64,000 nucleotides of DNA from Pristiophorus japonicus (taxonomy: Eukaryota), in contig NC_091999.1 in assembly GCF_044704955.1 (NCBI RefSeq), positions 48,794,001 to 48,858,000 on the forward strand, in the 5' to 3' direction. A model generated the notes under the pieces. The model had not been told where the DNA came from and did not search any database. It saw only the letters and a list, made by a program, of their open reading frames with translations. Every line of letters begins with the position of its first letter. Position 1 is the first letter of the stretch. A program made the translations under genes and the position numbers. Shown here piece after piece: positions 13,323-63,046 of this stretch.

Positions 13323-14045
<723 letters not shown>

Positions 14046-23427: not shown

Positions 23428-23959
23428 GTAGCTGAATCCCTTCCCACAGTCCCCACATTTCCACGGTTTCTCCGTGGTGCGGGTGTGCTTTCGTCTCTCC
23501 AGGTTGGATGATCAGTTGAAGCCTCCTCCACACACAACACGTTTACAGTTTTCCCCCGCTGTGAATGGTTCGAGGGTTTTTCAGGCTGTGTAATTGGTTA
23601 AAGCTCTTTCCACAATCAGTGCACTGAAACACTCTCACTCGGGTGTGTGTGTCTCTGCTTTTTCAGTCACACTGATGTTTGTAATCTTTCCCCACAGACA
23701 GAATAAACAAACATTTCTCCTTCCACATTCAAAGGCCGATGATATTCAAGTTCTGTTGCATCGAGTGAATCTATCTGATCACGACGTGACGTTTAGTTTG
23801 AGTTTCCCTTCTTCAAATCCTCCCTTTCTAACACCCTGCAAAAGGAGTTTAAAAAAGTCATCACTGTAAGTACAGGATTGAAATTCAGAAGAGACAATTC
23901 TAGTTTCTATGGAACATTCTTTCCTTCTGCTGTGTGGTTTTAAGTATTGTCTTAAAAAA

Positions 23960-37131: not shown

Positions 37132-37638
37132 CCCTGAAAGTACTGACTCTGGCTGGGTTCAGTTCTACACTCACTGGTTCCCCTCCCCTGAAGGTCCTGA
37201 CTCTGGCTGGGTTCAGTTCTACACTCACTGGTTCGCCTCCCCTGAAGGACCTGACTCTGGCTGGGTTCAGTTCTACACTCACTGGTTCCCCTCCCCTGAA
37301 GGTGCTGACTCTGGCTGGGTTCAGTTCTACACTCACTGGTACCCCTCCCCTGAAGGTACTGACTCTGGCTGAGTTCAGTTCTACACTCATTGGTTCCCCT
37401 CCCCTGAAGGTACTGACTCTGGCTGGGTTCAGTTCTACACTCACTGGTTCCCCTCCCCTGAAGTTGCTGACTCTGGCTGGGTTCAGTTCTACACTCACTG
37501 GGTCCCCTCACCTGAAGGTACTGACTCTGGCTGGGTTCAGTTCTACACTCGCTGGTTTTCCTCCCCTGAAGGTACTGACTCTGGCTGGGTTCAGTTCTAC
37601 ACTCACTGGTTCCCCTCCCCTGAAGGTGCTGACTCTGG
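37132..37638. repeat. 54-bp minisatellite, ~9.5 copies
   Basis: CTGACTCTGGCTGGGTTCAGTTCTACACTCACTGGTTCCCCTCCCCTGAAGGTA at 37143, 37197, 37251... Confidence 0.95.
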
Positions 37639-42996: not shown

Positions 42997-44199
42997 TCAC
43001 TTGTGAACTCGCTGGTGTTTCAGCAGGTTTGATGACCGAGGGAATCCCTTCCCACACTCAGAGCAGGTGAACGGCCTCTCCGCAGTGTGAACTCGCTGGT
43101 GACTCAGCAGGCTGGATGACACAGTGAATCCCTTCCCGCACTCAGAACAGGTGAACGGCCTCTTCCCCAGTGTGAACTCGCTGGTGTGCCAGCAGGTCGG
43201 ATGACTGAGTGAATCCTTTCCCACATTCAGAGCAGGGGAACGGCCTCTCCCCAGTGTGAACTCGCTGATGTTTCACCAGGCTGGATGGCTGAGTGAATCG
43301 CTTCCTACACTCTGAGCAGGTGAATGGCCTCTCCCTCGTGTGAACTCGGTCGTGTTGCAGCAGGTGAGATGACTGAGTGAATCCCTTGCCACACTTTGAG
43401 CAGGTGAATGGCCTCTCGCCGGTGTGAACTCGCTGGTGTTTGAGCAGGTTGGATGACCCAGTGAATCGCTTCCCACACACGTGGCAGGTGAACGACCTTT
43501 CCCCGGTGTGAACTCGCTCGTGTTTCCGCAGGTCGGATGACTGAATGAATCGCTTCCCACACACGAGGCAGGTGAACGGCCTCTCCCCTGTGTGAACTCG
43601 CTGGTGTTTCACCAGGCTGGATGGCTCAGTAAATCGCTTCCCACACTCTGAGCAGGTAAATGGCCTCTCCCCAGTGTGAACAAGCTGGTGTTTCAGCAGT
43701 TCGGATGAATGAATGAATGGCTTCCCACACACGGAGCATGTGAACGGCCTCTCCCCGGTGTGAATGTGTTGATGAATTTCCAGTGCAGATAGCAGCTGAA
43801 TCCCTTCCCACAGTCCCCACATTTCCACGGTTTCTCCGTGCTGCTGGTGTGCTTCCGTCTCTCCAGGTTGGATGATCAGTTGAAGCCTCCTCCACACACA
43901 ACACGTTTACAGATTCTCCACGCTGTGAATGATGCGATGGTTTTTCAGGCAGTGTAACTGGTTAAAGCTCTTTCCACAATCAGTGCACTGAAACACGCTC
44001 ACTCGGGTGTGTGTCTCAGTGCTTTTTCAGTCACACTGATGTTTGTAATCTTTCCCCACAGACAGAATAAACTAACATTTCTCCTTCCACATTCAAAGGC
44101 CGATGATATTCAAGTCCTGATGAATCGAATGACTCTATCAGATCTTGACGTGATGTTTAGTTTGAGTTTCCCTCCTTCAAATCCTCCCCTTCTAACACC
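42997..44199 (-). pseudogene. C2H2 ZNF pseudogene (ZNF-C), 9 fingers, two frameshifts
   Basis: 1-nt deletion near 43790 that also removes the ATG used by ZNF-B. 1-nt insertion near 43163 (GGG GAA GAG GCC). Acceptor at 44200-44201. Confidence 0.85.
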
Positions 44200-44324: not shown

Positions 44325-45657
44325 AATAATAAAGAGGGAGAAGATAAATTGAGAGTAAACTGACAAGAAATATAAATACAGTCACAGCTTCTACAGATAT
44401 ATAAAAAGGAAGACATAGCTAAAATAAACGTTGGTCCCTTAGAGAATGAGACGGGGAATTAATAATGAGAAACAGGGAAATGGCAGAGACTTTAAACAAA
44501 TATTTTGTGTGGTCTTCACGGTGGAAGACACTAAAAACATCCCAATAATAATAGATAATCAAGGGGTCACAGGGAGCGAGGAACTTAAAACAATCACTAT
44601 CACTGGAGAAAAAGTACGAGAAAAACTATTGGGACTAAAGGTGGACGTCCCCTGGACCTGATGGCCTGCATCCTGGGGTCTTAAAAGAAGTGGCTGCAGA
44701 GAAAGTGGATGGATTGGTTGTAATCGACCAAAATTCCCTGGATTCTGGCAAGGTCCCAGTGGATTGGAAAACCTCAAATGTAACACCCCTATTCAACAAG
44801 GGAGGGAGGGAGAGAGAAAGCAGGAAACTATAGAGCAGTTAGCCAAATATTTATCATTTGGAAAATGCTGGAGTCCATTATTAAGGAAATAGTAGCAGGA
44901 CATTTAGAAAATCATAATAGTCAAGCAGAGACGGCATGGTTTTATGAAAGGGAAATCACGTTTGACAAATTTGCTCGAATTCTTTGAGGATGTAACGAGC
45001 AGGGTGGATGAAGAGGAACCAGTAGCAGTTGTGTATTTGCATTTCCAGAAGTCATTCGATAAGGTGCCAGATAAAAGGTTACTGCACAATATAAGAGCTC
45101 ACAGGGTTGGTGGTAATATATTAGCATAGATGTAGGATTGGCGAACTAACAGAAAACAGAGAATGGGGATAAATGGGTCATTTTCAGGTTGGCAAACTGT
45201 AACTAGTGGGGTGCCACAGGGATCAGTGCTGGGGCCTCAATTATTTACAATCCATATTAATGACTTGGATGAAGGGACGGAGTGCACTGCAGCCAAATAT
45301 GCTGCTGATACAAAGATAGGTGGGAAAGCAAATTGTGAGGAGGACACAAAGAATCTGCAAAGGGTTATAGACAGGCTCAGTGAGTGGGCAAAAATTTGGC
45401 AGATGGAGTATAATGTGGGAAAATGTGAGGTTATGCACTTTGGTAGGAAGAATAAAAAAGCAAACTATTATTTAAATGGAGACTGCAAAATGCTGCGGGA
45501 CAGAGGGATCTGGAGGTCCTTGTGCATGAAACACAAAAAGTTAGCATGCAGGTACAGCAAGTAATCAGGAAGGTAAATGCAATGTTGGCCTTTATTGCAA
45601 GGGGAATGGAGTATAAAAGCAGAGAAGTCTTGCTGCAACTGTACAGTGTGTTCTTGA
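44325..45657 (+). mobile_element. CR1 RT fragment (paralogue of 23960-25830)
   Basis: Same motifs and shared lesions. Confidence 0.9.
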
Positions 45658-46004
45658 GATGATTTTGAGGAATAGACAAAATGTCTAAGCATTGATAAAT
45701 GCTTCGTCTAACATCTCCAACTGAGATATAAATGTACAGCATTTGTTTATCATGATATAGAACTATGCAGATTCTCCCAGTGGGACGAAAGTTGCTGAAA
45801 TGACTTTGAAGTATCCTCTCATTAAAGAGCTTCTCTTTGTCTCCAACCTGTGGTGTATATGAGCTGAGAGCGCTGAATGTACCAGCTTTGGCCACAAGTC
45901 CGACAAATATTCTGCTTCAGATTAACAGCCCGCCCCTTGGCTAAAATAGGCAACAAAATTAATTGAGCGGCTGTGTGTGTAACTCACGATTGGAAGAAAA
46001 GGCC

Positions 46005-46020
46005 TTTATTGTTTTTTATT
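46005..46020 (-). terminator. Two poly(A) signals of the secretory mu transcript
   Basis: AATAAA on the minus strand at 46015-46020 and 46005-46010, 30-45 nt past the stop. Confidence 0.7.
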
Positions 46021-46048: not shown

Positions 46049-46440
46049 TCATTGATAAGAATTGATGTTGTCCATCAGAACAAGAGAAATATTCACAAAA
46101 CTGGGTTTACCTCTGGATTTATTGACGGTTCTGTTGGTGATTTTCAAGGAAATCGGTTTATGTCCCACCACACAGGAGTAAGAAGCGCCGCTGGCCCACT
46201 CCTCGGCTGCAACGGATAGCAGGCTGTACATGAAGAATGATCTGCTGCCGTTCTCCGCCATCACCTCGGTGTTCTTGTAGTTGTCGGAATCCACCGGCTT
46301 GTCATTGACGGTCCATTTGACGAAGATCTCTCGGGGGGAGAAACCTCTCACTAAACAGGTGAGGCTGACCAACCTCTCAGCAGAGACTTCTTCTGCCGAG
46401 GGCAGGAGAACAGACACGGCCGGTTCCCGTGGATCTTTCG
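46049..46440 (-). CDS. IGHM: IgM heavy chain Cmu4 exon plus secretory tailpiece
   Basis: Acceptor TTCTACAG. Reads [13 protein letters not shown]...[17 protein letters not shown]...[15 protein letters not shown]...[20 protein letters not shown]. Internal membrane-form donor G|GTAAA at 46111/46110. Confidence 0.93.
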
Positions 46441-47339
46441 CTGTAGAACAGTTACAATAAAGGCCAATGAACTGGACAGTTCCAGAGACAATGGTGGGAG
46501 TTTTAATCTAATAAAGCAGGCGTGTTGAGGGTGTGGGGGTGATTAAATTTGTAAAAATCGGAATCCCGACATCAACCCGACCACTCCTGGTTGTAATATT
46601 GTATTTGAATAATATATTTATAGGAGGCTGGAATCCTCTATTTTAACCTCCATTCGGTGTTTAACTGTAGCTGGTCCGGCTTGACATACTGTGTAAATCC
46701 CAGCAGTTACAGCGATGCGTGGACTGCTGCACCCAGGTGGTTATTTCCCTTACACCTCCATTCTGGATCCAGGGTCCCTGCCTAACCCACCCCCCGCGTT
46801 CCGAGAGCTCCTCACTCGGATTCCAATCCTCCTCTTCTCCCGGGTGGCCTGTGAGACCACCACCACCACCAACTCGCCTTCTCCGTTTAAATTCGCCAAT
46901 GTCCTGTAGTTACACGTCAGATAAATATGCTCTTCGTTGACATTTAACGCTTTATTATTTCCCCTCTGGGGCCTCTCTTGTTTGCCATCCCGCAGCAGAG
47001 TGAACATAATCTTTCTCTCTGAAATCTTTAAGGGTTGGACTTGAATTTACTGCACAGATCAAGGCGATTTGGCGAACTGGTCTCTGCCTGTGTTTATGCT
47101 CCATACAAGCCTCCACCTGACTCAGTTCATCTAACCCTAATAACATACCCTTCTATTCCTTTCTCGCTCATGGACTTATCCAGTTTCCCCTAAAATACAT
47201 AACCTCAGGTCCAAGAGTGGGATTACCAAACTGAATGATCAGAGTAGCCCATTAAACACTTTATACAATGAATTGGCCCTTGCACATGCACCGGAAATAG
47301 TCACAGTATCTCACTTATTGCAACAATCTCCCCGCTCAC

Positions 47340-47648
47340 CCTTTTCCTTGTGGATGGAATCTCTGATAGGAGTCGGCATATCCTGATGGCTCACCACGCA
47401 GTAGAACTTATCCCCACTCAGCCAGTCTTGTGTCGAGATGTTTAAGTTGCTGATCACACTGTTGGGATCCTCTCCGGGTTGGACGGCAATCTCTGATTTC
47501 AAAGCCTCCTTTTCTCGGGTCCAGGACACGGTGAGCCCATAAGGAGCGTCAGACACGACGCAGGTTAAGGTCACCGTCGCCTCCAGTAAGACCTGTTCCA
47601 GTGACGGTGGGCGAAGAGTGATTTTTGAATCGCTGCATGGGACATCCA
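47340..47648 (-). CDS. IGHM: IgM heavy chain Cmu3 exon
   Basis: 309 nt, phase 1/1, TTTTGCAG acceptor and GTGAGC donor. Reads [19 protein letters not shown]...W...[20 protein letters not shown]. Confidence 0.93.
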
Positions 47649-48354
47649 CTGCAAAACAGGAATGAAAGTCAGGAAAAGCTGCAGCTTCAGAATCCGGACA
47701 CAATATTTAGCCTTAACTCGTTCAAGGGGAATACATCACTTTTGAGATATCAACCTCTCGCTGTTGCTTTAACACCGGCGGTATTGGAAGGACAATGAAT
47801 TGGCAACGATTCCGGGAGATCTGTAACATTTCTTGTGTATTTGCAGCCAGAGCCACCTGTAATGGGCTGTGAAGCAAATAACCAGCGTAAAACGGGAATA
47901 CATTGTGGTGCAATTGGGTTAGGCACTGAATAGCGCTCTTCCTGAAATCTCTTGCTCCTTTACACCCATCTATAGATCCTTGCATCCAAACGCATCTCCG
48001 CTGGTTATAATAGTGAAGCCCAAATAGCCCGAAGTTCAAGAGGTCTACACCAACATTACTCTGGTTCAAAACAAGTGTCAAATTGATTTCAGGATTTATG
48101 GGATAACAGGAAACAAAGTTAAGTTTCTGTTCACTTGCTGTGATCTTTATTGCGGTGAAAATGTGCAGGAACTAGTCACAGCCCCCGTCAGAGGAGAAGT
48201 GCAAGGTCGGGAGAATGGAGTTCCAAGGGGTCTTTTGTGGTGGGGCATCATTTTTAATGATGTCAGGTAGTTTGTTAATTTCTGTCATTACTGAACATTT
48301 ATCATGTCTGGTGAGAGAGAGTCAGAGTTAAATATGACCTCAGGGCATTAATAG

Positions 48355-48860
48355 CAACATAGGAACTGGATGAGGCCACTCAGCCCATCCATCCTGTCCC
48401 GCAATCCAGTTAGATCAGGGCTGATCTACACTCAACACCATCTTCACGCCTTGGTTCTGTAACCCTTGATAATCTTGCCTAACAAAAATCTATCAATCTA
48501 AGTTTTCAACGTTTCAATTGAAACCAAGCTTCAGCAGCTTTTGGGGAGGGAAATCCAGACTTCCTGTGAAGAAATCCTTCCTGACATCACTTCTGCACGA
48601 TCTGGCTCTAATTGTAAGATTCTGCTATTTGTTCTGGAATTTTCCATCAAAGGAAATAATTGTTCAACATCTACTTGATCAATTGTATTTATCTACTTGA
48701 ACACCTCAATTGTATCACCTCTTAATATTCTCTACTCGTCTCCTCATCATTTTATTTTATTAGCCCCGGTATCATTCGGATAAACCTGAACTTTACCGCC
48801 TCCATGACCAGTATATCCTTCCTGAGGTGCGGAGCCCAGAATTGGGCTCAGTGCTCTGAA
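48355..48860 (-). mobile_element. Old CR1 3' fragment in the Cmu2-Cmu3 intron
   Basis: Decayed CR1 3' UTR and LRKDILVMEAV coding sequence. Confidence 0.65.
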
Positions 48861-49044
48861 TAGGGTAGATGCCCATTCCAACAGTGGGTTCTGGACAGCT
48901 AGCAGTAAAGGGTTCCAGACTCTGACTGCCGCTCCGTATATGATCAGCCAACTCAGGATAAACCTGAGAATAAGGGCACGTTACTCACTGCCTGAAATCA
49001 GAGCAGGGGGAAAGCTTCGTTTGCGAGTTTATTAAATCCTGAAC

Positions 49045-49480
49045 AATGAGGAATCCTGAACCAGAAGATCGTGGGTTGAAGTCTCACTCCAGATACTTGA
49101 TCACAAAATGTAAGCTGAGTCTCCCAGTGCAGTACTGGGGGCGTGGTGCACTATCGGAGGTGCGGTCTTTCGGATCACGTGTTAAACCGAGGATCCGTCT
49201 GGCCTCTTAGGTGGACGTAAATGATTCCCTGGATCTATTTCAATGAAAAGCCGAGGACTTTTCCTTAGTGGCCTGGGAATATTTATAGCTCAAAAAACAC
49301 CACTAAGCAAAATATAATCTGGTCATTATCACACTGCTGTTTGTGGGAGATTGCTGTGCACTAAATGATTGCTGCACGTTGTACATTACAACTGTGACCA
49401 CATTTCACAACTTAATTCATTGGCTGGCAAGCGATTTGGTTCCGACTAAGGTAGCTGAAGGCGCTGTTTCAAGGCAAGTT
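49045..49480 (+). mobile_element. Deu-domain SINE in the Cmu2-Cmu3 intron
   Basis: Homologous to 25962-26395. Confidence 0.7.
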
Positions 49481-49615
49481 TGTAATCACAAGAATACACA
49501 AACTGCATGATTGGAAATTAGGAATAGTTCGGTGCTTTTTACTAATTTCAATAAAAGTCCTGACTGAGATCAGCGCTCATAATGGTCTATAACCTCCTGG
49601 GATTGTGCCTCTTAC

Positions 49616-49933
49616 CCGGAGATCTGATGAAGTTACGGCTTTGCGTGACCCCTTCATGAGTGTCCTGGCAGGTGTAGACCGAGCCGGTGAACCATTCCTC
49701 GGCGGGGACTGTCAGCCGACTGGCCGCCGAGAAGTTTCCATTCACCTCAAATACGGGAGAGGTGACGGAGCCAGAATCCAGGAGTTGTCCTCTCTCCAGC
49801 CAATTCACGGTCAGTGACTTTGGCCGGAAATCGATGATTGAACACACGGCGCTTGCATATCTGCTGCTGGTGATTTGTTCAGTAGAACTCAGCGTGAGGA
49901 GAACAGTTGGAGGGATGATGTCGCGTTCAGAAT
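49616..49933 (-). CDS. IGHM: IgM heavy chain Cmu2 exon
   Basis: 318 nt, phase 1/1, pyrimidine tract + AAG acceptor, GTAAGA donor. Reads PPTVLLT...[15 protein letters not shown]...[19 protein letters not shown]. Confidence 0.9.
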
Positions 49934-50049
49934 CTTCAAGAGAAGACAAATTATTGACATTGCTTGCAAAATCAATCATTAAGAAATGCAAAGTGTCCTT
50001 ATATTTTAACAGGTTCTTCGCTGTCAGACTAACACTAACCTGGCATTTA

Positions 50050-50490
50050 CAGAGAGCAGAACTGTGCACAGTCTTTTCAGTGTAATCTGCAGACCGGAAC
50101 TGTGCATAATATTCTTAGTATGATCTGGAGACCAGAACGTTACACAGTATTCCAAGAGTGATGAGGAGACCAGAACTGTAAACAATATTCTTAGTATGAT
50201 ATGGAGACCTGAACTGTGGACAGTATTCTAAATGTGATATGGAAACCAGAACTTGCATAATATTCTCAGTATGATAGGGAGACCAGAACTAAACACAGTA
50301 TTTTAATTGTGATATGGGAGACCAGAACGGTGCACAGTATTATAAGTGCGATAGGGAGACCAGAACTATACACAGTACTCTAAGTGTGATATGGAGAACA
50401 GAACTGTACACAGCATTCTAAGTGTAATATGGAGATCAGAACTGTACACGACACTCTAAGTGTCGTCTAACCAAATTTCTGTACAAGTTG
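50050..50490. repeat. 38-bp tandem repeat (~11 copies) amplified from a CR1 fragment
   Basis: GGAGACCAGAACTGTACACAGTATTCTAAGTGTGATAT at 50127, 50165, 50203, 50241... The reverse complement is CR1 [11 protein letters not shown] coding sequence. Confidence 0.9.
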
Positions 50491-50562
50491 AACATACCTT
50501 CTCTTCTTCTCACAGTTTCACCTGTATCCCACATCACTAACCTAGCATTGTGATGGCCCAGA

Positions 50563-50716
50563 CCGACACACCTCGCAGTAGATGCTGCTGCTGCACACCT
50601 CTGACTCGCTGATGGTTAACCGGCTCTTTATCTTTCTTCCAGGAAAGGCTGGTGATTTTATCTTTCTTCCAGGAAAAGCTGGTGATTTTGGGGGAGTAGT
50701 CCATCGCCAAACAGCT
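50563..50716 (-). pseudogene. IGHM: Rearranged IgM Cmu1 exon remnant
   Basis: Manual translation: CLAMDYSPKITSFSWKKDK-ITSLSWKKDKEP / frameshift / LTISESEVCSSSIYCEV. Both Ig cysteines and the Trp are recognisable. Confidence 0.85.
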
Positions 50717-50899
50717 GAAGCAGTTTCTCCCTACTCAGCGCACGGTGATCTGGGCTCTATTCCATCCTATTGAATGGACGTCTCTTGAGTTTCCTCCTTC
50801 CTCACACTCAATAAATAATCCGAATTAAATACCATTCCAAAATCCGGTTTATTGGAAGTTTCTCCTTAAAACGGTCCATTTCATTTCCCATTGTTGTTC

Positions 50900-51165
50900 T
50901 TGTTATATAACAATGACCTGGACTTGGTTATAGGGATTCCATCTCGAAGTTCGAAGATGAAGCAAAACCTGGCAACGTAGCCAATAGTGAGCATGATAGT
51001 AACAGACTTGAAGAGGAATCAGAGAGACGAGTGAAATGGGCCGGGACATGGCAGGTGCAATTTAATGCGGATAATTGAGAAGCGGTGCACTTTGGGTGGA
51101 ACAAGGAGAGGCAGTATCATCTAAATAGTATTGTTTTGAGGGGATACAAAAACAAAAATATCTGG
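50900..51165 (+). mobile_element. Old CR1 RT fragment
   Basis: Decayed NDLDL...SKFEDE...W..TWQVQFN...VHFG. Confidence 0.65.
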
Positions 51166-51296
51166 ATATTGCCCCGGTGTCAATATTACTAAAAATGTTA
51201 TTTAATGCTCACTGAAAGCCGATGTGCATGTGTTTGTATGTGGGGTTGGGGTTGAAGCCCAGATTCTCACAGAGACAGAATCCAGGTTCTCACAGG

Positions 51297-51378
51297 ACCA
51301 GGATAGCCGAGTGGTTGAGGCGTTGGCCTTAAAATTCAATGGGTTTTTCCCGCGTGGGTTCGTACCCAACTCCTGGTA
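51297..51378 (+). tRNA. tRNA-Leu(TAA), probable pseudogene
   Basis: ACCAGGA...TCCTGGTA acceptor stem. Anticodon-stem mismatch and altered T-arm. Confidence 0.75.
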
Positions 51379-52124
51379 TTTCTTGAATTTAACACGGATT
51401 TCCTCCCATTCTGATCAGTAAAGCCGGATATAAATCGGTTTAATCAGCAATTTTCTGTAACAATGTGACACTCTGAACCGATAATGAAATGAAATTGTGA
51501 AATGTATCTGTGTCGCTCGGTCTCTAACTCTCTCTCTCTCTTCAGAGAGTTGTGTATGCGTTTGTATGTTTGAGTCTTTGTCTCTCTCAGTCTGACTACT
51601 CTGTCTGTCCCTGTTTCTCTGTTTGTCTCTGTCTTTCAATCTGTCTCTTTCTCACGGTTCCACGTCTGTTCCAATGGGATTCTCTCAGACTCTTTGTCTG
51701 ACTGGCTCTCTCTTTTCCATCATTTCGGTCTGTCCATGTCTTTGCCTGTCTCTGTGAGTCCCTGCCTGTAAGCTGAGAAGTATTTCCATCATTTTCTGTT
51801 TTAGTCTCTATCGCTCTCTCTCCATCTGTCTCTCTCCTTGTCACTGTCTTTATCATTTTCTTTCTCTCACTCTTTCCCTCTCTCTCTTAATAGATCACAC
51901 ACACACATCTCTGTATATGTATATGTTTGAGTGTTTTTCACACTCAGTCTGCTTCTCCTTCTCAGTCTCACACTTTCTGTCTCTCGTTGTCTCTATCTCG
52001 CTGTCTGTCTCTCCCTGTTTGTCGGTTTGTCTCTGACTCTCAATGTGTCTGTCGACTTCTCATGGTGTCCGGTTCTGTTCACAGTGGCTCGATTCCTGCT
52101 CTGACAGAGCTGCTACCCGTCAGT

Positions 52125-52196
52125 TCCTCGTTAGCATAGTGCTGAGTATCCCCGCCTGTCACGTGGGTGACCGGGATTGAATTCCCCGACGCAGAG
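52125..52196 (+). tRNA. tRNA-Asp(GTC) pseudogene
   Basis: TCCTCGTTAG...CCTGTCACG... with A/B-box and acceptor-stem lesions. Confidence 0.75.
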
Positions 52197-52426
52197 GCAG
52201 TTGTTTCAAAATGTAGAATTTTACTTCTGTTTCTTGGTAGAGATTCATATTAAAAAGTTCCAGAGCAATAAAGAACTGTAAAAGTACACGCAGAGGTTAG
52301 AGCCTCTTCCAGATTTTGAGCAAACGGAGACTTTTTCACGATTCTTTGGCCGTCTGCTGCACAGAGATGGATGACTGACTTTTTTCTGAGTGAATCTCTA
52401 CCAAGTACTCACCAGGTTCTCACAGG

Positions 52427-52508
52427 ACCAGGATAGCCGAGTGGTTAAGACGTTGGCCTGAAAATTCAGTGGGTTTTTCCCGCGTGGGTTCGTACCCTAC
52501 TCCTGGTA
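52427..52508 (+). tRNA. tRNA-Leu body with anticodon changed to GAA, probable pseudogene
   Basis: Leu(TAA) scaffold with loop CT-GAA-AA (anticodon 52460-52462). Confidence 0.7.
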
Positions 52509-52749
52509 TCTTTTTAATTTGACACGGATTTCCTCCCATTCTGATCAGTAAAACCGGATTTTCATCGGTTGAATCAGCAATTTTCTGTAACAATGTGACA
52601 CTCTGAACCGATAATGAAATGAAATTGTGAAATGGATCTGTGTCGCTCGGTCTCTGCCTCTCTCTCTTCAGAGAACTGTGCATGTGTTTGGATGTTTGAG
52701 TCTTTGTCTCTCTCAGTATGACTCACTCTGTCTGTCCCTGAAAGACACA

Positions 52750-52829
52750 GTAGTCGTGGCCGAGTGGTGAAGGCGACGTACTCGAAATCCATTGGGTTAT
52801 CCCGCCAGGTTCGAATCCTGCCGACTACG
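52750..52829 (+). tRNA. tRNA-Ser(CGA) on an AGA-type body, probable pseudogene
   Basis: GTAGTCG...CGACTACG acceptor stem and intact GGTTCGAATCC. Anticodon-stem mismatches and a 2-nt deletion. Confidence 0.75.
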
Positions 52830-53592
52830 ATTCTCAGCATTTTTCATTCCATTTCACAATTTAACCGGTTATCTGCCAAACTGATCCTGAGATCGATGGA
52901 ATAACGTCCCACACCTTTCAACCTGACATTTTTTTCTCATTTTTATTAATCTGCAATATTCACGATATATCAGTTTCAAAAATGGCAAACATCAGTCAAA
53001 GTTGCGACAGTGATTCAGCCTGTCTATCCCTCGAGATGTCTGAGGCATCTGTGCATGCCCGTTGGTGCGTGCAAATTTTTGGTTATGTATCTGTGTGTCT
53101 CTGTGTCTGTCTATCTCTATATATGTCTCTGTGTATGTGCGACTGTCTGTGGAAATCATCACCATGAATTTGGTATGTCCTGGAACTTATAAAAAAGACT
53201 TGGGGAAAATAATACGGTTGTGAACTTTTGTATCGGCTTTGGTTCAGTGGCAGCATTCTCGACTGAATCGGGAGTTTGTGTGATCAAGTCGCACTCCTGA
53301 GACTTGAGCATTATCATCTTGGCTAACACTCAAGTGCAGCACTTGGGGAATTTTGCAATGTTGAAGCTGTTGACTTTCGGATGAAATGTTAAATTGAAGC
53401 TCCGTCTGCACCCTCGGGTGGATATGAAAGGTCCCAGAGCATTACTCGAAAAAGAATAGGAGAGTTGCCCCCGTGTCCATATTGCTAAAAATGTTCGTAA
53501 ATGCTCACTGAAAGCCGATGTGCATGTGTTTGAATGTGGGGTTGGGGTTGAAGCCCAGATTCTCACAGAGACAGAATCCAGGTTCTCACAGG

Positions 53593-53676
53593 ACCAGAAT
53601 AGCCGAGTGGTTGAGGCGTTGGCCTTAAAACTCAATGGGGTTTTTTCCCGCGTGGGTTCGTACCCCACTCCTGTTA
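53593..53676 (+). tRNA. tRNA-Leu(TAA) pseudogene
   Basis: Paralogue of 51297 with acceptor-stem mismatches. Confidence 0.7.
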
Positions 53677-54393
53677 TCTCTTTAATTTGACACGGATTTG
53701 CTCCCATTTTGATCAGTAAAACCGGATATAAATCGGTTTAATCAGCAATGTTCTGTAACAATGTGACACTCTGAACCGATAATGAAATGAAATTGTGAAA
53801 TATATCTGTGTCGCTCGGTCTCTGCCTCTCTCTCTTCAGAGAACTAAGCATGTGTTTGAATGTTTGAGTCTTTGACTCACTCTGTCTGTCCCTGTTTCTC
53901 TGTTTGTCTCTGTCTCTCAATCTGTCTCTTTCTTACTGTGCCACATCTGTTCCAATGGGATTCTCTCAGACTCTTTGTCTGACTGGCTCTCTCTTTCCCA
54001 TCATTTCGGTCTGTCCATGTCTTTGCCTGTCTCTGTTAGCCCCTGCCTGTAAGCTGAGAAGTATCTCCATCATTTTCTGTTTTAGTCTCTCTATCTGTCT
54101 CTCTCCTTGTCACTGTCTTTATCATTGTCTTTCTCTCACTCTTTCCCTCTCTCTCTTAATAGATCACAAACACACATCTCTGTATATGTATATGTTTGAG
54201 TCTTTTTCTCACTCAGTCTGCTAATCCTTCTCAGTCTCACACTTTCTGTCTCTCGTTGTCTCAATCTCGCTGTCTGTCTCTCCCTGTTTGTCGGTTTGTC
54301 TCTGTCTCTCAATGTGTCTGTCGACTTCTCATGGTGTCCAGTTCTGTTCACAGTGGCTCGATTCTTGCTCTGACAGAACTGGTACCCGTCAGT

Positions 54394-54465
54394 TCCTCGT
54401 TAATATAATGATGAATATCCCCGCCTGTCATGCTGGAGACTGGGGTTCAATTCCCCGACGGGGAG
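54394..54465 (+). tRNA. tRNA-Asp(GTC), probable pseudogene
   Basis: Acceptor and T arms largely intact; D-loop GG lost. Confidence 0.75.
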
Positions 54466-54684
54466 GCAGTTATTTAAAAATGTAGAATGTTACTTCTATT
54501 TCTTGGTAGAGATTCATATTAAATGTTCCAGAGCAATATCGAACTGTAAAAATACAGGGGGAGGAGATTGCCTCGTCCAGATTTTCAGCAACGGAGAATT
54601 TTTCAGGAGTCTTTGGCCGTCTGCTGCACAGACATGGATGACTGAGTTTTTTCTTAGGCCAAGTACGGACCACGTTCTCACAGG

Positions 54685-54766
54685 ACCAGGATAGCCGAGT
54701 GGTTAAGGCGTTGGTCTTAAAATTCAATGGGTTTTTCCCGCATGGGTTCGTACCCCACTCCAGGTA
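54685..54766 (+). tRNA. tRNA-Leu(TAA), probable pseudogene
   Basis: D-arm intact; mismatches in acceptor, anticodon and T stems. Confidence 0.75.
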
Positions 54767-55007
54767 TATCTTTAATTTGACACGGATTTACTCCCATTCT
54801 GATCAGTAAAACCGGATTTAAATCGGTTGAATCAGCAATTTTCTGCAACAATGTGACACTCTGAACCGATAATGAAATGAAATTGTGAAATGTGTCAGTG
54901 TCGCTCGGTCTCTGCCTCTCTCTCTTCAGAGAACTCAGCATGTGTTTGTATGTTTGAGTCTTTGTCTCTCTCAGTCTGACTCACTCTGTCTGTCGCTGAA
55001 AGACACA

Positions 55008-55087
55008 GTAGTCGTGGCCGAGTGGTTAAGACGACGGACTCGAAATCCATTGGGTTAGCCCGCCAGGTTCGAATACTGCCGACTATG
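55008..55087 (+). tRNA. tRNA-Ser(CGA), probable pseudogene
   Basis: Paralogue of 52750 with the same anticodon and deletion. Confidence 0.72.
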
Positions 55088-55382
55088 ATTCTCAGCATTG
55101 TTCATTCCATTTCACAATTTAACCGGTTCTCTGCCAAACTGATCCTGCGATAGATGGAATAACGTCCCACACCTTTCAACACTGACATTTTATTCTCATT
55201 TTTATTAATCTGCAATATTCACGATACATCCGTTTCAAAAATCGCAAACATCAGTCAAAGTTGCAACAGTGATTCAGCCTGTCTATCCCTCGAGATGTCT
55301 AAGGTATCTGTGCATGCCCGTTGTTGCGTGCAAATTTTTGGTTATGTGTGTGTGTGTCTCAGTGTCTGTCTATCTCTATATA

Positions 55383-56035
55383 TGGCATGTTCGCTTTCAT
55401 AGCTAGGTGATTTGAGTATAGGAGCAGGGATGTCTTACTGCAGTTGTACAGGGCCTTGGTGAGGCCATACCTGGAATGTTGTGTTCAATTTTTGTCCCCG
55501 AATCTGAGAAAGGACGTCCTTGATATTGAGGGAGTACAGCGAAGGTTCACCAGCATGATTCCCGGGATGGCAGGATTGACATCTGAGGAGAGACTGGATC
55601 AACTGGACTGGTATCCACTGGAGTTTAGAAGAATGAAAGGGGATCACACAGAAACATATAAAATTCTGACTAGATTGGACAGCTTAGAGACTGGAAGAAT
55701 GTTCTCGTTGCTGGGGAGTATGCGACCAAGGATTAGAGTCGAAGATTAAGGGGTAAGCCATTTAGGACCGAGATGACGAGAAACCTATTCACTCAGAGAG
55801 TGGTTATCCTGTGAAATTTTCTACCGCAGAAAGTAGTTGAGGCCAGTTCGTTAGATATAATCAAAAGGGAGTTAGATATGCCCCTTACGGCTAAAGCGAT
55901 CAAGGGGTATGGAGAGAAAGCAGGAAATGGGTACTGAGGTTGAATGATGAGCCATGATCTTATTGAATGGTGGTGCAGGCTCGAAGGGCCGAATGTCATA
56001 TTCCTGCACCTAATTTCTATGTCTCTATGTTTCTA
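55383..56035 (+). mobile_element. CR1 3' fragment carried in the tRNA repeat unit (also 58440-59165 and 61715-62445)
   Basis: LYRALVRP.LE.CVQF.SP motif and (TTTCTATG)n tail at the same position in three units. Confidence 0.88.
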
Positions 56036-56573
56036 TGTTGATGCGTGTATATTTTTGATTATTGTGTGTGCGTGTATCTGTTTATGTCTATCTGTATGTA
56101 TATCTCTGTGTATGTGCAAATGTCTGTGGAAATCATCACCATGAATTTGGTACGTCCTGGAACTTTTTAAAAAACTTGGGAAAAATAATACGGTTGTGAT
56201 CTTTGGTATCGGTTTTGGTTCAGTGGCTCCATTCTCGACTGAATCAGGAGGTTGTGTGTGTAAGACCCACTCCTGAGACTTAAACACATCATCTTGGATG
56301 ACACTCAAATGCAGTATTTGGGGAATGTTGCATTATTGAAGCTGTTGACCATCGGCTGAAATTTTAAATTGAAGCTCCATCTGCACCCTCGGGTGGATGT
56401 GAAAGGTCCCAGAGCCTTAGTCGAAAAAGAATCGGAGAGCTGCGCCCGTGTCAATATTACGAAAAATGTTCATAAATGCTCCCTGAAATCCAATGTGTCT
56501 CTGTGTCACTGTGGGGGTGGAGCTGAATTCCAGATTCTGACAGAGATAGAGTCCAACCACTGACAGGATCAGG

Positions 56574-56656
56574 ACCAGGATGGCCGAGTAGTAAAGGCGT
56601 TGGACGTAAGATGTAATGGGTTTATACCCGCGTGGGTTCAACCCCGCCTTCTGGTA
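56574..56656 (+). tRNA. tRNA-Leu(TAA) pseudogene
   Basis: Leu scaffold with a damaged anticodon arm and B-box. Confidence 0.7.
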
Positions 56657-57837
56657 ATTCCTTAATAAAACGGAGATTTTTCCCATCCTGCTCAGTGATA
56701 CCCGACTTTCATCTGCTGAATCTCCACTTTTCTGTAACTCTGTGACACTCTGAGCCGAAAAAGAAATGAAATTTTGAAATGTATCTGTGTCGCTCTCTCT
56801 CTTTAGAGAGCTGTGTTTGTGTGTGTGTGTTTGAGTCTTTGTCCCTCTCAGTCTACCTCTCTCTGACACTCTCTGTTTGTCCCTGTTTCTCTGTTTGTCT
56901 CTGTCTCTCAATCTGTCTCTTTCTCACGGTGTCTAGTTCTGTTGCCATGGGATTCTCTCAGACTCTCTGTCTGACTGCCTCTCTCTGTCCCATTATCTCT
57001 GTCTGTCCATGTCCTTGTCTGTCTCTGTTAGTCTCTGTCTCTAACCTGATAAGTATTTCCATTATTTTCTGTTTTTGTCTCTATGTCTCTCTCTCTATCT
57101 GTCTTTCTCTCTATCTATCTCCCTCTTTTTCTCTCTCTTTGTCCCTGTCCTTTTCTCTGTCATTCCATCACTATTTGCCTCCCTCTCTTTATGGAGCATG
57201 CAAATACATCTCTGTGTATGTATGAGTTTGAGTCGTTTTCTCATTCAGTCTGATCCTCCCTTTCAGACTCAAAGTTGATGTCTCTCTTTGTCTCTGTCTC
57301 GCTGTCTGTCTCTCCCTGTTTCCCTGTTTGTCTCTGGTTCTCAATGTGTCTGTCTCTTTCTCACCGTGTCCAGTTCTGTTCGAACGGGATACTCTCAATC
57401 TCTCTGTCTGACTTTTTCACTCTTTACCATCATCTCTGTCTGTCTATGTTTCTGCCTATCTGTCTCTCTTTGCCTGTCGCTGGTAGTTCCTGTCTCTAAC
57501 CTGCTGAGTATTTCCATCATTTTCTGTTTATATCTTTGTCTCTCTCTCTATCTGTCGCTCTCTCTCCATCTGTCTCTCACCTTGTCACTGCTTTATCACT
57601 GTCTTTCTCTCACTCTTTCCCTCTCTCTTCTTATAGATCACACACACGCATCGCTGTATATGTAGGTGTTTGAGTCTTTTTCTCGCTGACTCTGACTGAC
57701 TTTTCAGTCTCACCCTTTCTGTCTCTCGTTGTCTCTCTCTCGCTGACTGCCGATCCCTGTTTATCGGTTTGTCTCTGTCGATCAATGTTTCTGTCGACTT
57801 CTGTTCACAGCTCGATGACTGCTCTGACGCAACCCGT

Positions 57838-57911
57838 TCCCTCGTCCGTGTCATGCCGATTATGCCCCCCTTTTACGTGGGAGAACCGGGTTCAATTCCC
57901 CGACGGAAAAG
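57838..57911 (+). pseudogene. Highly degenerate tRNA-Asp
   Basis: Positional equivalent of 52125; retains GGGTTCAATTCCCCGACGG. Confidence 0.6.
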
Positions 57912-58128
57912 CAGCTTTTTCAAAATGTTGAATTTTACTTCTGTTTCTTGGTATAGTTTTTATTAAAAAGTTCCACATCAATATAGAACAGTAAAAATAC
58001 AGCAAGAGGAGATTGCCTCTTACAGATCTTTTGCAAACGGAGACTTTTTCAGAAGTCTGTGGCCGTCTGTTGCACAGAGATGGATGACTGAGTTTTTTCT
58101 GAATAACATTTAAAGTGCCAGAGACGCA

Positions 58129-58210
58129 GTAGTTGTTGCCGAGTGGTTAAAGCGAAGGTCTAGAAGTCCTGTCGGTTTGCTGCTTGTAGTTTCGAATCCT
58201 GCCGACTACG
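58129..58210 (+). tRNA. tRNA-Ser(AGA) pseudogene
   Basis: GTAGTTG...CT-AGA-AG...TTCGAATCCTGCCGACTACG. Confidence 0.7.
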
Positions 58211-59682
58211 ATTCACAGCATTTTCCATTCCATTTTACAATTTAACCAGGTTTTTGCAAAACGGATCCTGAGATAGGCAGAATAACGTCCCACACATTTC
58301 AACACTGACATCTATTTCTCATTTTTATTAATCTGCAATATTCATGATTCATACGGATAGAAAAACGCAAAAATCAGCCAAAGTACCGACAGTGACCCTG
58401 CCTGTCTATCCATCTACTTGTCAAAGGCAATCTATGTATATCTTGATCTGGGTGCCATGGTACATCAGTCATTGATTGTTGGTGTGCAGGTGCAGCAGGC
58501 GGTGAAGAAGGCTAATGGCATGTTCCCCTTCATAGCTAGGGGATTTGAGTATAGGAGCAGGGAGATCTTACTGCATTTGTCCAGGGCCTCCGTGAGGCCA
58601 CACCTGGAATACTGTGTTCAGTTTTGGTCTCCGAATCTGAGGAAGGACGTCCTTGCTATTGAGGGAGTACAGCGAAGGTTCACCAGCATGATTCCCGGGA
58701 TGGCAAGACTGACATATGAGGAGAGACTGGATGAACTGGGCTGGTATCCACTGGAGTATAGAAGATTGAGAGTAGATCAGAAGAAACATGAAAAATTCTG
58801 ACGAGATTGGACAGCTTAGAGGCTGGAAGCATGTTCTCGCTGCTGGGGAGTTCGAGACCAAGGATCAGAGTCTAAGAGTAAGGGGTAAGCCATTTAGAAA
58901 CCGAGATGAAGAGAAACGTCTTCACTGAGAGAGTGGATAACCAGTGAAATTTTCCACTGCAGAAAGTCGTTGAGGCCAGTACGTTAGATATATTCAAAAG
59001 GGAGTTAGATATTGCCCTTACGGCTAAAGGGATGAAGGGGTATAGAGAGGAAGCAGGAAAGGGGTACTGAGATTGAATGATCAGCCATGATGTTATTAAA
59101 TGGTAGTGCAGGCTCGAAGGGCCGAATGGCATATTCCTGCACCTAATTTCTATGTTTCTATGTTGATGCGTGTATATTGTTGGTTATTGTGTGTGTCGTG
59201 TGTCTGTGTCTGTCTATCTGTATGTATGTCTCTGTGTATGTGCAACTGTCTGTGAAAATCATCACCATGAATTTGGTACGTCCTGGAACTTTTTAAAAAA
59301 CTTGGGGTAAAATAATACAGTTGTGAACTTTGGTATCGGTTTTGGTTCAGTGGCTCCTTTCTCGACTGAATCAGGAGGTTGTGTGTGTAAGTCCCACTCC
59401 TGAGACTTGAACCCATAATCTTGGCTGACACTCAAATGCAGTACTTGGGGAATGTTGCATTGTTGAAGCTGTTGACCATCGGCTGAAATTTTAAATTGAA
59501 GCTCCATCTGCACCCTCGGGTGGATGTGAAAGTTCCCAGAGCCTTAGTCGAAAAATAATAGGAGAGTTGCGCCCGTGATAATATAACGAAAAATGTTTGT
59601 AAATGCTCCCTGAAATCAGATGTGTCTGGAGCTGAAGCCCAGATTCTCACAGAGGCAGAGTCCAACCTCTGACAGGTTTAGG

Positions 59683-59765
59683 ACCAGGATGGCCGAGTGG
59701 TAAAAACGTTAGACTTAAAATCTAATGGGTTTATACTCGCGTGGGTTCGAACCCCACTCCTGGTA
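59683..59765 (+). tRNA. tRNA-Leu(TAA), one of the best-preserved copies (D-stem broken)
   Basis: Fully paired acceptor, anticodon (TTAGA/TCTAA) and T arms. The D-stem 3' strand GGC is changed to AAC. Confidence 0.78.
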
Positions 59766-60823
59766 ATTCCTTAATTAAACAGAGATTTTTCCCATCCTGC
59801 TCAGTGATACCCGATTTTCATCTGCTGAATCTCCAGTTTTCTGTAACGATGTGACACTCTGAGCATGAAATGAAATTGTGAAATGTCTCTGCTGCTCTCT
59901 CTCTCTTTCGAGAGCTGTGCATGTGTTTGTCTGTTTGAGACTTTGTCTCTCTCTGACCCACGCTGTCTCTCAATCTGTCTCTTTCTCACGGTGTCCAGTA
60001 CTGTTGCAATGGTATTCTCTCAGACTCTCTGTCTGAATGCCTCTCTCTGTCCCATTGTCTCTGTCTGTCCATGTCCTTGCCTGTCTCTGTCTCTAACCTG
60101 ATAAGTATTTCCATTATTTTCTGTCTTTCTCTCTATCTGTCTCCCTCTTTTTCTCTCTCTTTGTCCCTGTCCTTTTCTCTGACATTCCATCACTATTTGC
60201 CCCCCTCTCTTTTTGGAGCACGCAAATACATCTCTGTGTATGTATGTGTTTGAGTCTTTTTCTCATTCAGTCTGATCCTCCCTTTCAGTCTCAAACTTTC
60301 TGTCTCTCTTTGTCTCTATCTCACTGTCTGTCTCTCCCTGTTTCCCTGTTTGTCTTTGGTTCTGAATGTGTCTGTCTCTTTCTCACGGTGTCCAGTTCTG
60401 TTCGAAAGGGATTCACTCAATCTCTCTGTCTGGCTGTCTCACTCTTTCCCATAATCTCTGTCTGTCTATGTTTCTGCCTATCTGTCTCTCTTTGCCTGTC
60501 GCTGGTATTTTCTACCTCTCAACTGCTGAGTATTTCCATCATTTTCTGTTTATATCTGTCTCTCTCTCTATCTGTCGCTCTCTCTCTATCTGTCTCTCTC
60601 CTTGTCACTGTCTTTCTCTCACTCTTTCCCTCTCTCTCTTTATATGTAGGGGTTTGAGTCTTTTTCTCACTGAGTCTGCCTCACTTTTCAGTCTCACCCT
60701 TTCTGTCTCGCGTTGTCTCTCTCTCTCGCTGTCTGTCTATCCCTGTTTGTCGGTTTGTCTCTGTCGATCAATGTGTCTGTCGACTTCTGTTCACAGCTCG
60801 ATTACTGCTCTAACGCAACCCGT

Positions 60824-60896
60824 ACCGTCGTCCATATAGTGGTGATTATTCCCGCTTGTTATGCGGGAGAACTGGGTTGAATTTCCCGACGGCGCA
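60824..60896 (+). pseudogene. Degenerate tRNA-Asp
   Basis: TATAGTGGTGA...CCCGC TTGTTAT GCGGG... at the Asp position of the unit. Confidence 0.6.
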
Positions 60897-61114
60897 GCAG
60901 TTTTTTCAAAATGTCGAATTTTACTTCTGTTTCTTTGTATAGATTTTATTAAAAAGTTCCAGAGCAATATAGAACAGTAAAAATACAGCAAGAGGAGATT
61001 GCCTCTTCCAGATTTTTTGCAAACGGAGACTTTTTCAGGATTCTGTTGCCGACCGCTGCACAGAGATGGACGACTGAATTTTTTCTGAGTAACATTTAAA
61101 GTGCCAGAGATGCA

Positions 61115-61196
61115 GTAATTGTGGCCGAGTGGTTAAAGCGATGGACTAGAAATACTTTGGGTTTTCTGCGCGTAGGTTTGAATCCTGCCGACTACG
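61115..61196 (+). tRNA. tRNA-Ser(AGA) pseudogene
   Basis: ATGGACTAGAAAT anticodon arm and the Ser 3' end. Confidence 0.72.
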
Positions 61197-62963
61197 ATTC
61201 TCAGCATTTTTCATTCCATTTAACAATTTAACCAGGTTTTGGCAAAACTGATCCTGAGATAGATGGAATAACGTCCCACACCTTTCAACACTGACATTTT
61301 TTTCACATTTCTGCTAGTCTGCAATATTCACGATACATACGGATAGAAAAATGCAAAAATCAGCCAAAGCAGTGACTCAGCCTGTCTATCCCTCGATATG
61401 TCAAAGGCATCTGTGCATGTCCGTTGGTGCATGTATATTTTTGGTTATGTGTGTGTGTGTGTGTGTGTGTTTCTGTGTCTGTCTATCTGTATATATGTCT
61501 CTGTGTATGTGCAACTGTCTGTGGAAATAATCAACATGAATTTGGCATGTCCTGGAACTTTTTCAAAAGACTTGGAGAAAATAATACGGTTGTGAACTTT
61601 TGCATTGGCTTTGGTTCAGTGGCAGCATTCTCGACGGAAAAACGCAAAAGCCAGCCAAAGCAGCGACAGTGACCCTGCCTGCCTATCCGTCTATTTGTCT
61701 AAGGCACTCTGTGTATATCTTGATCTGGGTGTCATGGTACATCTGTCATTGAAAGTGGGTATGCAAGCGCAACAGGCAGTGAAGAAGGCAAATGGCATGT
61801 TCGCCTTCATAGCTAGGTGCTTTGAATATAGGAGCAGGGAAGTCTTCCTGCAGTTGTACAGGGCCTTGGTGAAGCCACACGTTAAATATTTTGTTAGTTT
61901 TGGTCTCCAAATCTGAGGAAGGACGTCAGAATTGATGGAGCACAGCGAAGGTTCACCAGCTTGATTCCAGGGATGGCAGGACTGTCATATGAGGATAGAC
62001 TGGATCAACTCTGCTGGTATCCACTGGAGTTTAGAAGAATGAGAGAGGATCTCATAGAAACATATCAAATTCTGACGAGATTGGACAAGTGAGAGGCAGG
62101 AAGAATGTTTCTGTTGCTGGGGAGTTCGAGAACCAGGGGTCACAGTCTCAGAATAAGGGGTAAGCCATTTAGGACCAAGATGAGGAGAAACAGCTTCATT
62201 CAGAGAGTGGTTAACCTGTGGAATTCTCTACCGCAGAAAGTTGTTGAAGCCAGTTCGTTAGATATATTGAAGAGGGAGTCAGATATGTCCCTTACGGCTC
62301 AACGGATCAAGGGATATGGAGAGAAAGGAGGATATAGGTACTGAGGTTGAATGATCAGCCATGATCTCATTGAATCGTGGTGCAGGCTGGAAGGGCCGAA
62401 TGGCCTACTCCTGCAACTAATTTCTATGTTTCTATGTTTCTATGTTGATGCGTGTATATTTTTGGTTATTTTATGTGTGTGTGTGTCTGTGTATGTCTAT
62501 CTGTATATTTGTCTCTCTGTATGTGCAACTGTCTGTGGAAATCATCACCAAGAATTTGGTATGTCCTGGAACTTTTAAAAAAACTTGGGGAAAATAATAC
62601 GGTTGTGATCTTTGGTATCGGCTTTGTTTCAGTGGCTCCATTCAAAAGGTCGTGTGTGTAAGTCCCTCTCCTGAGACTTGAGCGCATCATCTTGGCTGAC
62701 ACTCAAATGCATTACTCTGGGAATTTTGCATTGTTGAAGCTGTTGATCATCGAATGAAATGTGAAATTAAAGCTCCGCCTGCACCCTCGGATGGATGTGA
62801 AAGGTCCCAGAGCATTACTCGAAAAAGAATAGGAGAGTTGCCCCGTGTCAATATCACGAAAAATGTTCGAAAATGCTCCCTGAAACCCTCTGTGTCTGTG
62901 TGTGTCTGTGGGGGTGGAGCTGAAGCCCAAATTCTGACAGAGACAAAACCCGTTTCTGCCAGG

Positions 62964-63046
62964 ACCAGGATGGCCGAGTGGTTAAAGTGTTGGACTTAAA
63001 ATCCAATGGATTTATAACTGTGTGGGTTCGAACCCCACTCCTGGTA
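62964..63046 (+). tRNA. tRNA-Leu(TAA), near-intact
   Basis: Acceptor, anticodon (TTGGA/TCCAA) and T arms intact. D-stem and variable arm are weakened. Confidence 0.78.

What the first reader, a model, noticed from the sequence alone, without database searches (positions are those of the whole stretch)
46049..50716. Orphan IgM Fc cassette: Cmu1 destroyed while Cmu2-Cmu4-secretory exons remain open
Seen: three consecutive constant exons (318, 309 and 392 nt) have no stops or frameshifts, keep canonical phase-1 splice sites and are followed by two AATAAA signals. Cmu1 is wrecked, and I found no V, D, J, RSS or leader in the 13 kb upstream, which is a tRNA array. Known: sharks have many VDJ-C clusters and cross-cluster isotype switching, and CH1 binds light chain and BiP, so losing it is the route to heavy-chain-only antibodies. 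Inference: this is either a recent orphon pseudogene or a CH1-less/Fc-only chain that uses a distant V or leader. The contrast between several lesions in Cmu1 and no disablements in ~1 kb of the other exons is what needs explaining.
Basis: partly seen in the sequence, partly recalled or inferred. Interest (0 to 1): 0.75.

Follow-up and report, generated by a model that had tools for sequence, protein, structure and literature searches.

The report
Headless shark IgM pseudogene, 23 copies
This is the tail end of a shark antibody (IgM) gene that has lost its variable part, first constant exon and membrane anchor and was duplicated many times; nearly all copies are broken, so this copy's open exons are most likely a chance survivor of neutral decay, not a new heavy-chain-only antibody.

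Summary
Observation confirmed; the functional reading is not supported. Cmu2, Cmu3 and Cmu4-secretory are open with canonical splice sites, and Cmu1 has lost its acceptor and first cysteine. But the cassette is one of at least 23 genomic copies sharing that Cmu1 deletion. Only 3 of 23 keep Cmu2-4 open; neutral decay predicts about 4. dN/dS is 0.91-1.14 across the family and 0.93-1.16 in the window's four-copy subclade, against 0.31-0.39 in intact clusters. The nearest upstream V lies about 390 kb away in a complete cluster. Two relatives still carry leader-V-DJ, with V broken, so the family descends from a V-DJ cluster by nested deletions. Cmu3 looks refreshed by gene conversion. A window-only 10-nt deletion puts an ATG in the Cmu1 remnant in frame with Cmu2-4 (393 aa, no signal peptide). 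Expression is untested. The scan noted other dead IgM clusters in this genome, not this family.

The parts
50734..51167 (-). Stub of the J-C intron; 5' breakpoint near 51167, shared by the 21 V-less copies
50714..50733 (-). About 20-nt filler at the ~680-nt deletion that removed the Cmu1 acceptor and first Cys; family marker, 23 copies
50542..50713 (-). Cmu1 remnant with 30-nt duplication (50627-50689), 68-nt deletion and window-only 10-nt deletion; donor intact; ATG at 50704 in frame with Cmu2 in this copy only
50052..50463 (.). 38-nt minisatellite of the Cmu1-Cmu2 intron, also present in standard clusters
49616..49933 (-). Cmu2 exon, open; Val90 to Asp in the C-x-V-x-H strand
47340..47648 (-). 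Cmu3 exon, open; protein identical to a standard cluster; likely gene-conversion tract with ~200 nt of flank each side
46049..46440 (-). Cmu4 plus secretory tail, open; penultimate Cys to Tyr
46005..46020 (-). Two AATAAA signals
45136..45720 (.). 3' breakpoint near 45720 (329 nt after the stop) next to a LINE reverse-transcriptase-like fragment (label recalled); TM exon absent beyond it
51297..63046 (+). Array of degenerate tRNA-like genes with CT-rich spacers, co-duplicated with the cassette in place of V-DJ

Best explanation
This is a duplicated IgM constant-region fragment lacking V, J, a usable Cmu1 and the membrane exon, and it is most likely a silent pseudogene whose three open exons have survived by chance. 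Shown: one Cmu1 deletion junction in 23 copies; 2 copies with leader-V-DJ upstream and a broken V; 21 with a second shared breakpoint; 4 (window subclade) with a third that removed TM; 20 of 23 broken in Cmu2-4; dN/dS about 1. Inferred order: a V-DJ-joined IgM cluster lost the Cmu1 acceptor and the tail Cys, then V-DJ was replaced by a tRNA-like array, then TM was lost in the window's subclade. Inferred too: the piece spread as a passenger of large segmental duplications, and gene conversion from standard clusters reset Cmu3.
For: 23 full-length junction matches (40 of 164 candidates scored, so a lower bound). Three sisters are ~97% identical over 30 kb or more. Open Cmu2-4: 3 of 23, against 12 of 16 standard clusters. 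Neutral expectation P(open)=0.18, 4.1 of 23. Segregating nonsynonymous:synonymous changes: family 145:49, window subclade 27:9, 11 intact standard clusters 51:51; Fisher p=3e-5 and 0.011. Derived changes carried by at least 80% of the family: 11 nonsynonymous to 4 synonymous. Tail Cys to Tyr in 23 of 23; that Cys links IgM monomers (PMC7709107, passages). Val90Asp sits at a site that is Val in 11 of 11 intact clusters and in all 8 significant PDB domain alignments shown. An open sister has lost the Cmu2 core Trp. No TM exon. No V for ~390 kb. In nurse shark, promoters appear tied to V segments only (PMC5192425, passage).
Against: Expression was not tested. The three open copies alone give 15:7 (omega 0.66-0.83), too few to separate neutral from constrained. 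Over its whole path from standard clusters the window copy has 17 nonsynonymous to 12 synonymous private changes: p=0.09 against the neutral ratio and p=0.53 against intact clusters. That path probably includes time as a working gene. Cmu3 has no amino-acid change against a standard cluster. The standard set was picked by likeness to the window's Cmu4, which inflates its open fraction; of 8 further clusters picked by V likeness, 4 were open in Cmu1-4. The 23 copies share lesions by descent and are not independent trials.
Confidence: 0.88

Rival explanations
1. The cassette is an occasional recipient of shark cross-cluster switching: a rearranged VDJ from another cluster recombines into the intron stub, J splices to Cmu2 (phase 1), and a secreted, monomeric, CH1-less heavy chain is made.
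For: Cross-cluster switching over more than 120 kb is reported in nurse shark (PMC4279169, passage). Splice phases fit, polyA signals are intact, and a same-orientation complete cluster lies ~381 kb upstream. Loss of CH1, TM and tail Cys would together give a secreted monomer.
Against: dN/dS is about 1 in the subclade, one of its four copies is frameshifted, and core residues are lost. Only ~430 nt of J-C intron remain. The family's own V and J keep the light-chain-facing FR2 and J Trp residues (residue roles recalled), so there is no sign of a single-domain V.
Confidence: 0.05
2. The family's ancestor was a working CH1-less IgM (leader-V-DJ-Cmu2-3-4-TM) that later died; the window is a relic of a lost heavy-chain-only experiment.
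For: 2 of 23 copies keep leader, V with 23-RSS, a 12-RSS DJ-joined segment, the Cmu1 deletion and TM, so the Cmu1 deletion likely came before V loss. Cmu1 was hit by an acceptor-removing deletion, which resembles camelid CH1 skipping (recalled). Exons diverge 6-8% from standard clusters, most introns 10-20%.
Against: Changes shared across the family are 11 nonsynonymous to 4 synonymous, a neutral ratio. Both surviving Vs carry the same frameshift and stop. The closest outside V-J relative (C23:65.03 Mb, 88%) is also broken, with a full-length but frameshifted Cmu1.
Confidence: 0.04
3. The window copy makes a leaderless 393-aa protein from the Cmu1-remnant ATG through Cmu2-4, or a sterile transcript.
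For: A private 10-nt deletion puts the ATG at 50704 (G at -3 and +4) in frame with Cmu2 in 1 of 23 copies; the spliced frame has a single terminal stop. One TATA-like site lies at 50909.
Against: One random indel in three gives this frame shift; 22 of 23 copies lack it. The N-terminus is charged, with no hydrophobic signal, so Ig disulfides would be unlikely to form (inference). No octamer within 10 kb of Cmu2 apart from one chance-level hit ~7 kb away.
Confidence: 0.03

Closest known systems
Elasmobranch IgM minicluster and its pseudogene and partly germline-joined forms (PMC5192425 section 6.1 and passages; PMC2435157 passages)
   Same: Cmu exon sizes, phases, introns and tail; 92-99% exon identity to complete clusters on the same contig; the V-bearing relatives are V-DJ partly joined.
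   Different: No V, D, J, usable Cmu1, TM or tail Cys; amplified to at least 23 copies together with a tRNA-like array. The papers seen describe no V-less, Cmu1-deleted family.
Camelid heavy-chain-only IgG and shark IgNAR
   Same: The CH1-type exon cannot be spliced in, and the downstream exons stay in phase.
   Different: No dedicated V, no purifying selection, no evidence of expression.
IgM1gj of nurse shark (PMC5192425 and PMC4279169, passages)
   Same: A three-C-domain IgM derivative from a germline-joined cluster.
   Different: IgM1gj lacks Cmu2, keeps Cmu1 and a joined VDJ, and is expressed with light chain.
V-less secreted IgD of channel catfish (PMC5192425, passage)
   Same: A constant-only secreted immunoglobulin is a real precedent.
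   Different: It is reported as a produced form from a functional C-delta gene; here no leader exon was found and the exons drift neutrally.

Membership tests
Functional elasmobranch IgM minicluster | V, D and J segments with RSS a few kb upstream | tested here: not met
   none in the window or before the next complete cluster ~381 kb upstream
Functional elasmobranch IgM minicluster | Four intact Cmu exons | tested here: not met
   Cmu1 acceptor and first Cys deleted; Cmu2-4 open
Functional elasmobranch IgM minicluster | Transmembrane exon and tail with penultimate Cys | tested here: not met
   TM absent; Cys to Tyr
Duplicated IgM pseudogene | Homology to Cmu with introns retained | tested here: met
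Duplicated IgM pseudogene | Disabling lesions | tested here: met
   loss of V-DJ, Cmu1 acceptor and TM; 20 of 23 copies also broken in Cmu2-4
Duplicated IgM pseudogene | Neutral evolution of the coding exons | tested here: met
   omega 0.91-1.14 (23 copies) and 0.93-1.16 (subclade of 4) against 0.31-0.39; the 3 open copies alone are inconclusive
Duplicated IgM pseudogene | No protein product | not tested
   no RNA or protein data were obtained
Orphon (Ig gene outside the main locus) | Lies away from the Ig locus | tested here: not met
   lies among dozens of IgM clusters on C23 between 13 and 64 Mb
Heavy-chain-only antibody gene (camelid or IgNAR type) | CH1 not spliced in | tested here: met
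   acceptor deleted
Heavy-chain-only antibody gene (camelid or IgNAR type) | Dedicated functional single-domain V | tested here: not met
   no V in 21 of 23 copies within the 11-33 kb read; V broken in the other 2
Heavy-chain-only antibody gene (camelid or IgNAR type) | Expressed and secreted without light chain | not tested
   no RNA or protein data were obtained
IgM1gj | Germline VDJ, Cmu2 missing, Cmu1 kept | tested here: not met
   Cmu2 present, Cmu1 destroyed, no VDJ (definition from PMC5192425)

The most novel reading that the evidence does not exclude
The window's subclade is a V-less switch acceptor. Having shed Cmu1, the membrane exon and the polymerising cysteine, and with Cmu3 refreshed from a working cluster, it would turn any VDJ switched into it into a secreted, monomeric, light-chain-free IgM: a second, independent shark route to heavy-chain-only antibody, descended from a V-DJ cluster that lost Cmu1 first.
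Probability: 0.05. Interest if true: 0.75.

Novelty: new member of a known kind. Interest (0 to 1): 0.17.

Why it matters
As a pseudogene it matters little. It warns that open Cmu exons inflate counts of shark IgM genes, and it gives a readable case of birth-and-death: three nested deletions, passenger amplification to at least 23 copies, and likely gene conversion between dead and live clusters around Cmu3. If the switch-acceptor reading held, sharks would have a second heavy-chain-only antibody built on IgM, and the subclade markers make that cheap to test in long-read RNA.

Tried and rejected
Distant V or leader: tblastn with IgM V, Cmu1-4 and TM over 451 kb (window to C23:49,245,330) found only this cassette and one complete cluster; nothing Ig-like lies in 40 kb below the window. 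RSS scans gave only scattered weak matches. TM displaced by an insertion: not found in 86 kb downstream here or in 10 kb downstream of the three sisters. Selection on the stem of the window's subclade: one search suggested an excess of synonymous changes (11:11 against standard clusters), but the site table showed that most are shared with other family copies or vary among standard clusters, leaving about 4 synonymous to 2 nonsynonymous, two of them CpG transitions; rejected as too few. An intact-Cmu1 sister of the family: not found among the 40 scored hits of each of two searches. The J reference was mis-placed and its rows were ignored; J was located. One search failed on wrong coordinates and was not needed. 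Branch-wise dN/dS was not obtained; pairwise, segregating-site and outgroup-polarised counts were used. Literature searches for a Cmu1-less shark IgM family listed none; the primary shark switching papers were not among the results, and no supplements were read.
Full report
Observation. All are open, with AG/GT sites in phase 1, and two AATAAA follow at 46020 and 46010. Each matches Pfam C1-set, and mu heavy chains are among the best PDB matches. The window is G000:C23:48,794,001-48,858,000, in a 5.9-Gb genome with 141 Cmu4 candidates, of which 40 were scored. I call it a shark from the cluster layout and sequence type (own knowledge); the species was not determined.

Anatomy against standard clusters. 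Neighbouring complete clusters run leader-V-(D)-J, about 7 kb of intron, Cmu1-4, and a TM exon 3-5 kb further on; 7 of the 8 for which 20 kb were read had a V. The window matches them only from 51167. A ~680-nt deletion with a ~20-nt filler has removed the Cmu1 acceptor and first Cys. A 30-nt duplication and a 68-nt deletion lie 6 nt apart and may be one event (inference), and a 10-nt deletion is private to the window. Upstream is an array of degenerate tRNA-like genes. Over 451 kb, tblastn found no V until the complete, same-orientation cluster at C23:49.22-49.24 Mb, which has its own Cmu1-4 and TM.

It is a family. The Cmu1 junction has 23 full-length matches, 20 on C23 and 3 on two small contigs (40 of 164 candidates scored). 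I read all 23. Three (C23:63.65, 60.16, 40.67 Mb) are ~97% identical to the window over 30 kb or more. Twenty-one share a second breakpoint 461 nt above the junction and have no V or J in the 11-33 kb read. Two (C23:23.11 Mb, C3770:0.41 Mb) keep leader, V, 23-RSS and a 12-RSS DJ-joined segment, but V has a 1-nt deletion and a stop in both. All 10 copies outside the window's subclade with at least 4.4 kb read downstream keep an open TM exon; 9 had too little sequence to tell; the four subclade copies break 329 nt after the stop and have no TM. Eight copies, paired by eye, lie 125-128 kb from a member of a second V family; the one such cluster I read is broken. So the cassette likely spread inside large duplicated blocks (inference).

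Is the openness surprising? No. Cmu2-4 are all open in 3 of 23 copies, against 12 of 16 standard clusters (the latter were chosen by likeness to the window's Cmu4, a bias towards intact ones; 4 of 8 further clusters chosen by V likeness were open). From intron divergence (2.2% substitutions and 0.07% frameshifting indels per lineage), a neutral copy stays open with probability 0.18: 4.1 expected, 3 seen (copies are not independent). Segregating nonsynonymous:synonymous changes are 145:49 in the family (omega 0.91-1.14), 27:9 in the subclade (0.93-1.16), 92:69 in all 16 standard clusters (0.41-0.51) and 51:51 in the 11 left after dropping 5 with lesions (0.31-0.39); Fisher p=3e-5 and 0.011 against the 11. 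Derived changes carried by at least 80% of the family are 11:4.

Missed lesions. The tail ends in Tyr-Gln in 23 of 23 copies and Cys-Gln in 16 of 16 standard clusters; in human IgM that penultimate Cys links monomers (PMC7709107, passages). Cmu2 Val90 is Asp, at a site that is Val in all 11 intact clusters and in the 8 significant domain alignments shown from PDB. The open sister at 40.67 Mb has also lost the Cmu2 Trp44.

Results against this reading. The three open copies alone give 15:7 (omega 0.66-0.83, not different from 1 but weak). The window's 17:12 private changes against intact clusters fit neutrality (p=0.09) and constraint (p=0.53) alike; part of that path probably predates the Cmu1 loss. 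Cmu3 is protein-identical to the standard cluster at C23:35.07 Mb with 4 synonymous differences, while Cmu2 and Cmu4 differ by 20 and 24 changes. Because synonymous sites and ~200 nt of flanking intron are also close (4-10% against mostly 10-20% elsewhere), and family monophyly at Cmu3 is weakly rejected (p-AU 0.033), I read this as gene conversion from standard clusters, not selection. It matters, since Cmu3 is broken in all 19 copies outside the subclade. An early-branching subclade explains part of the pattern too. Finally, the private 10-nt deletion puts the remnant's ATG (50704) in frame with Cmu2, giving a 393-aa spliced frame in 1 of 23 copies; it has no signal peptide, and one indel in three would do this.

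How it most likely works. It does nothing: with no V promoter, V, J, Cmu1 or TM it cannot form a receptor or rearrange, and its exons drift. The inferred history is a V-DJ IgM cluster, then Cmu1 deletion and tail Cys loss, then V-DJ loss, amplification, and TM loss in the subclade. The live alternative is switching: in nurse shark a V region can be expressed with another cluster's C region over more than 120 kb (PMC4279169, passage), and J would splice in frame to Cmu2. Such a chain would be CH1-less, secreted-only and likely monomeric. I put it at 5% because nothing shows selection. Expression was not tested.

Comparison with what is known. Elasmobranch IgH genes lie in up to 100-200 miniclusters, with partly joined forms and pseudogenes (PMC5192425 section 6.1 and passages; PMC12227049 abstract, passages and first Results section; PMC2435157 passages). 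IgM1gj lacks Cmu2, not Cmu1. Six searches (listings only) showed no description of a V-less, Cmu1-deleted IgM family; the library lacks most subscription journals, and I read no supplements. Earlier notes of this scan report other dead IgM clusters in this genome and nothing like this stretch by sequence.

Verdict. A real feature, and an ordinary kind of thing: a duplicated IgM pseudogene, new member of a known kind. Interest 0.17.

Noticed in passing
G000:C23:23,113,500-23,120,300 (L060, L125) and C3770:406,200-413,000 (L131, L061): Two family members keep leader-V-23RSS, a 12RSS-DJ germline-joined segment, the Cmu1 deletion and TM: the layout of a CH1-less heavy-chain gene, with V frameshifted and stopped.
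   Followed up: yes
window 50704-50542: A private 10-nt deletion puts the Cmu1-remnant ATG in frame with Cmu2-4 (393 aa, no signal peptide) in 1 of 23 copies.
   Followed up: partly
window 47850-47140 and paralogues: Cmu3 and its flanks are much closer between dead and standard clusters than the rest of the cassette; ten copies carry standard-type sequence in the Cmu3-Cmu4 intron. Possible conversion hotspot.
   Followed up: partly
C23 at 47.92, 50.50, 23.87, 23.50, 61.51, 58.24, 29.70, 25.81 Mb: A second V family lies 125-128 kb from eight of the Cmu1-deleted cassettes, pointing to a duplicated block of that size; the one read (L155-L156) is broken.
   Followed up: partly
window 51297-63046: Ten degenerate tRNA-like genes (ARAGORN: five Leu-TAA, three Ser, one Phe, one Asp) in a repeated CT-rich unit, opposite strand to the cassette.
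   Followed up: partly
window 13293-14040, 22636-23511, 43000-43906: Three C2H2 zinc-finger arrays (84-nt repeats; label from the residue pattern); 20296-25268 is ~92% like the ~39-46 kb segment of the sisters, so the zinc-finger unit is itself tandemly duplicated.
   Followed up: no
window 37132-37638: A 54-nt minisatellite that also occurs ~16 kb downstream of the standard cluster at C23:47.21 Mb.
   Followed up: no
C19:63,797,500-63,817,499 (L153-L154): A divergent broken IgM cluster on another large contig, a true orphon candidate.
   Followed up: partly
S clusters at C23:27.75, 49.22 Mb (L073-L074, L079-L080): Several standard clusters with open V and Cmu1-4 have a single 12-RSS before a long J-like segment, i.e. 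V-DJ partly joined in the germline.
   Followed up: no
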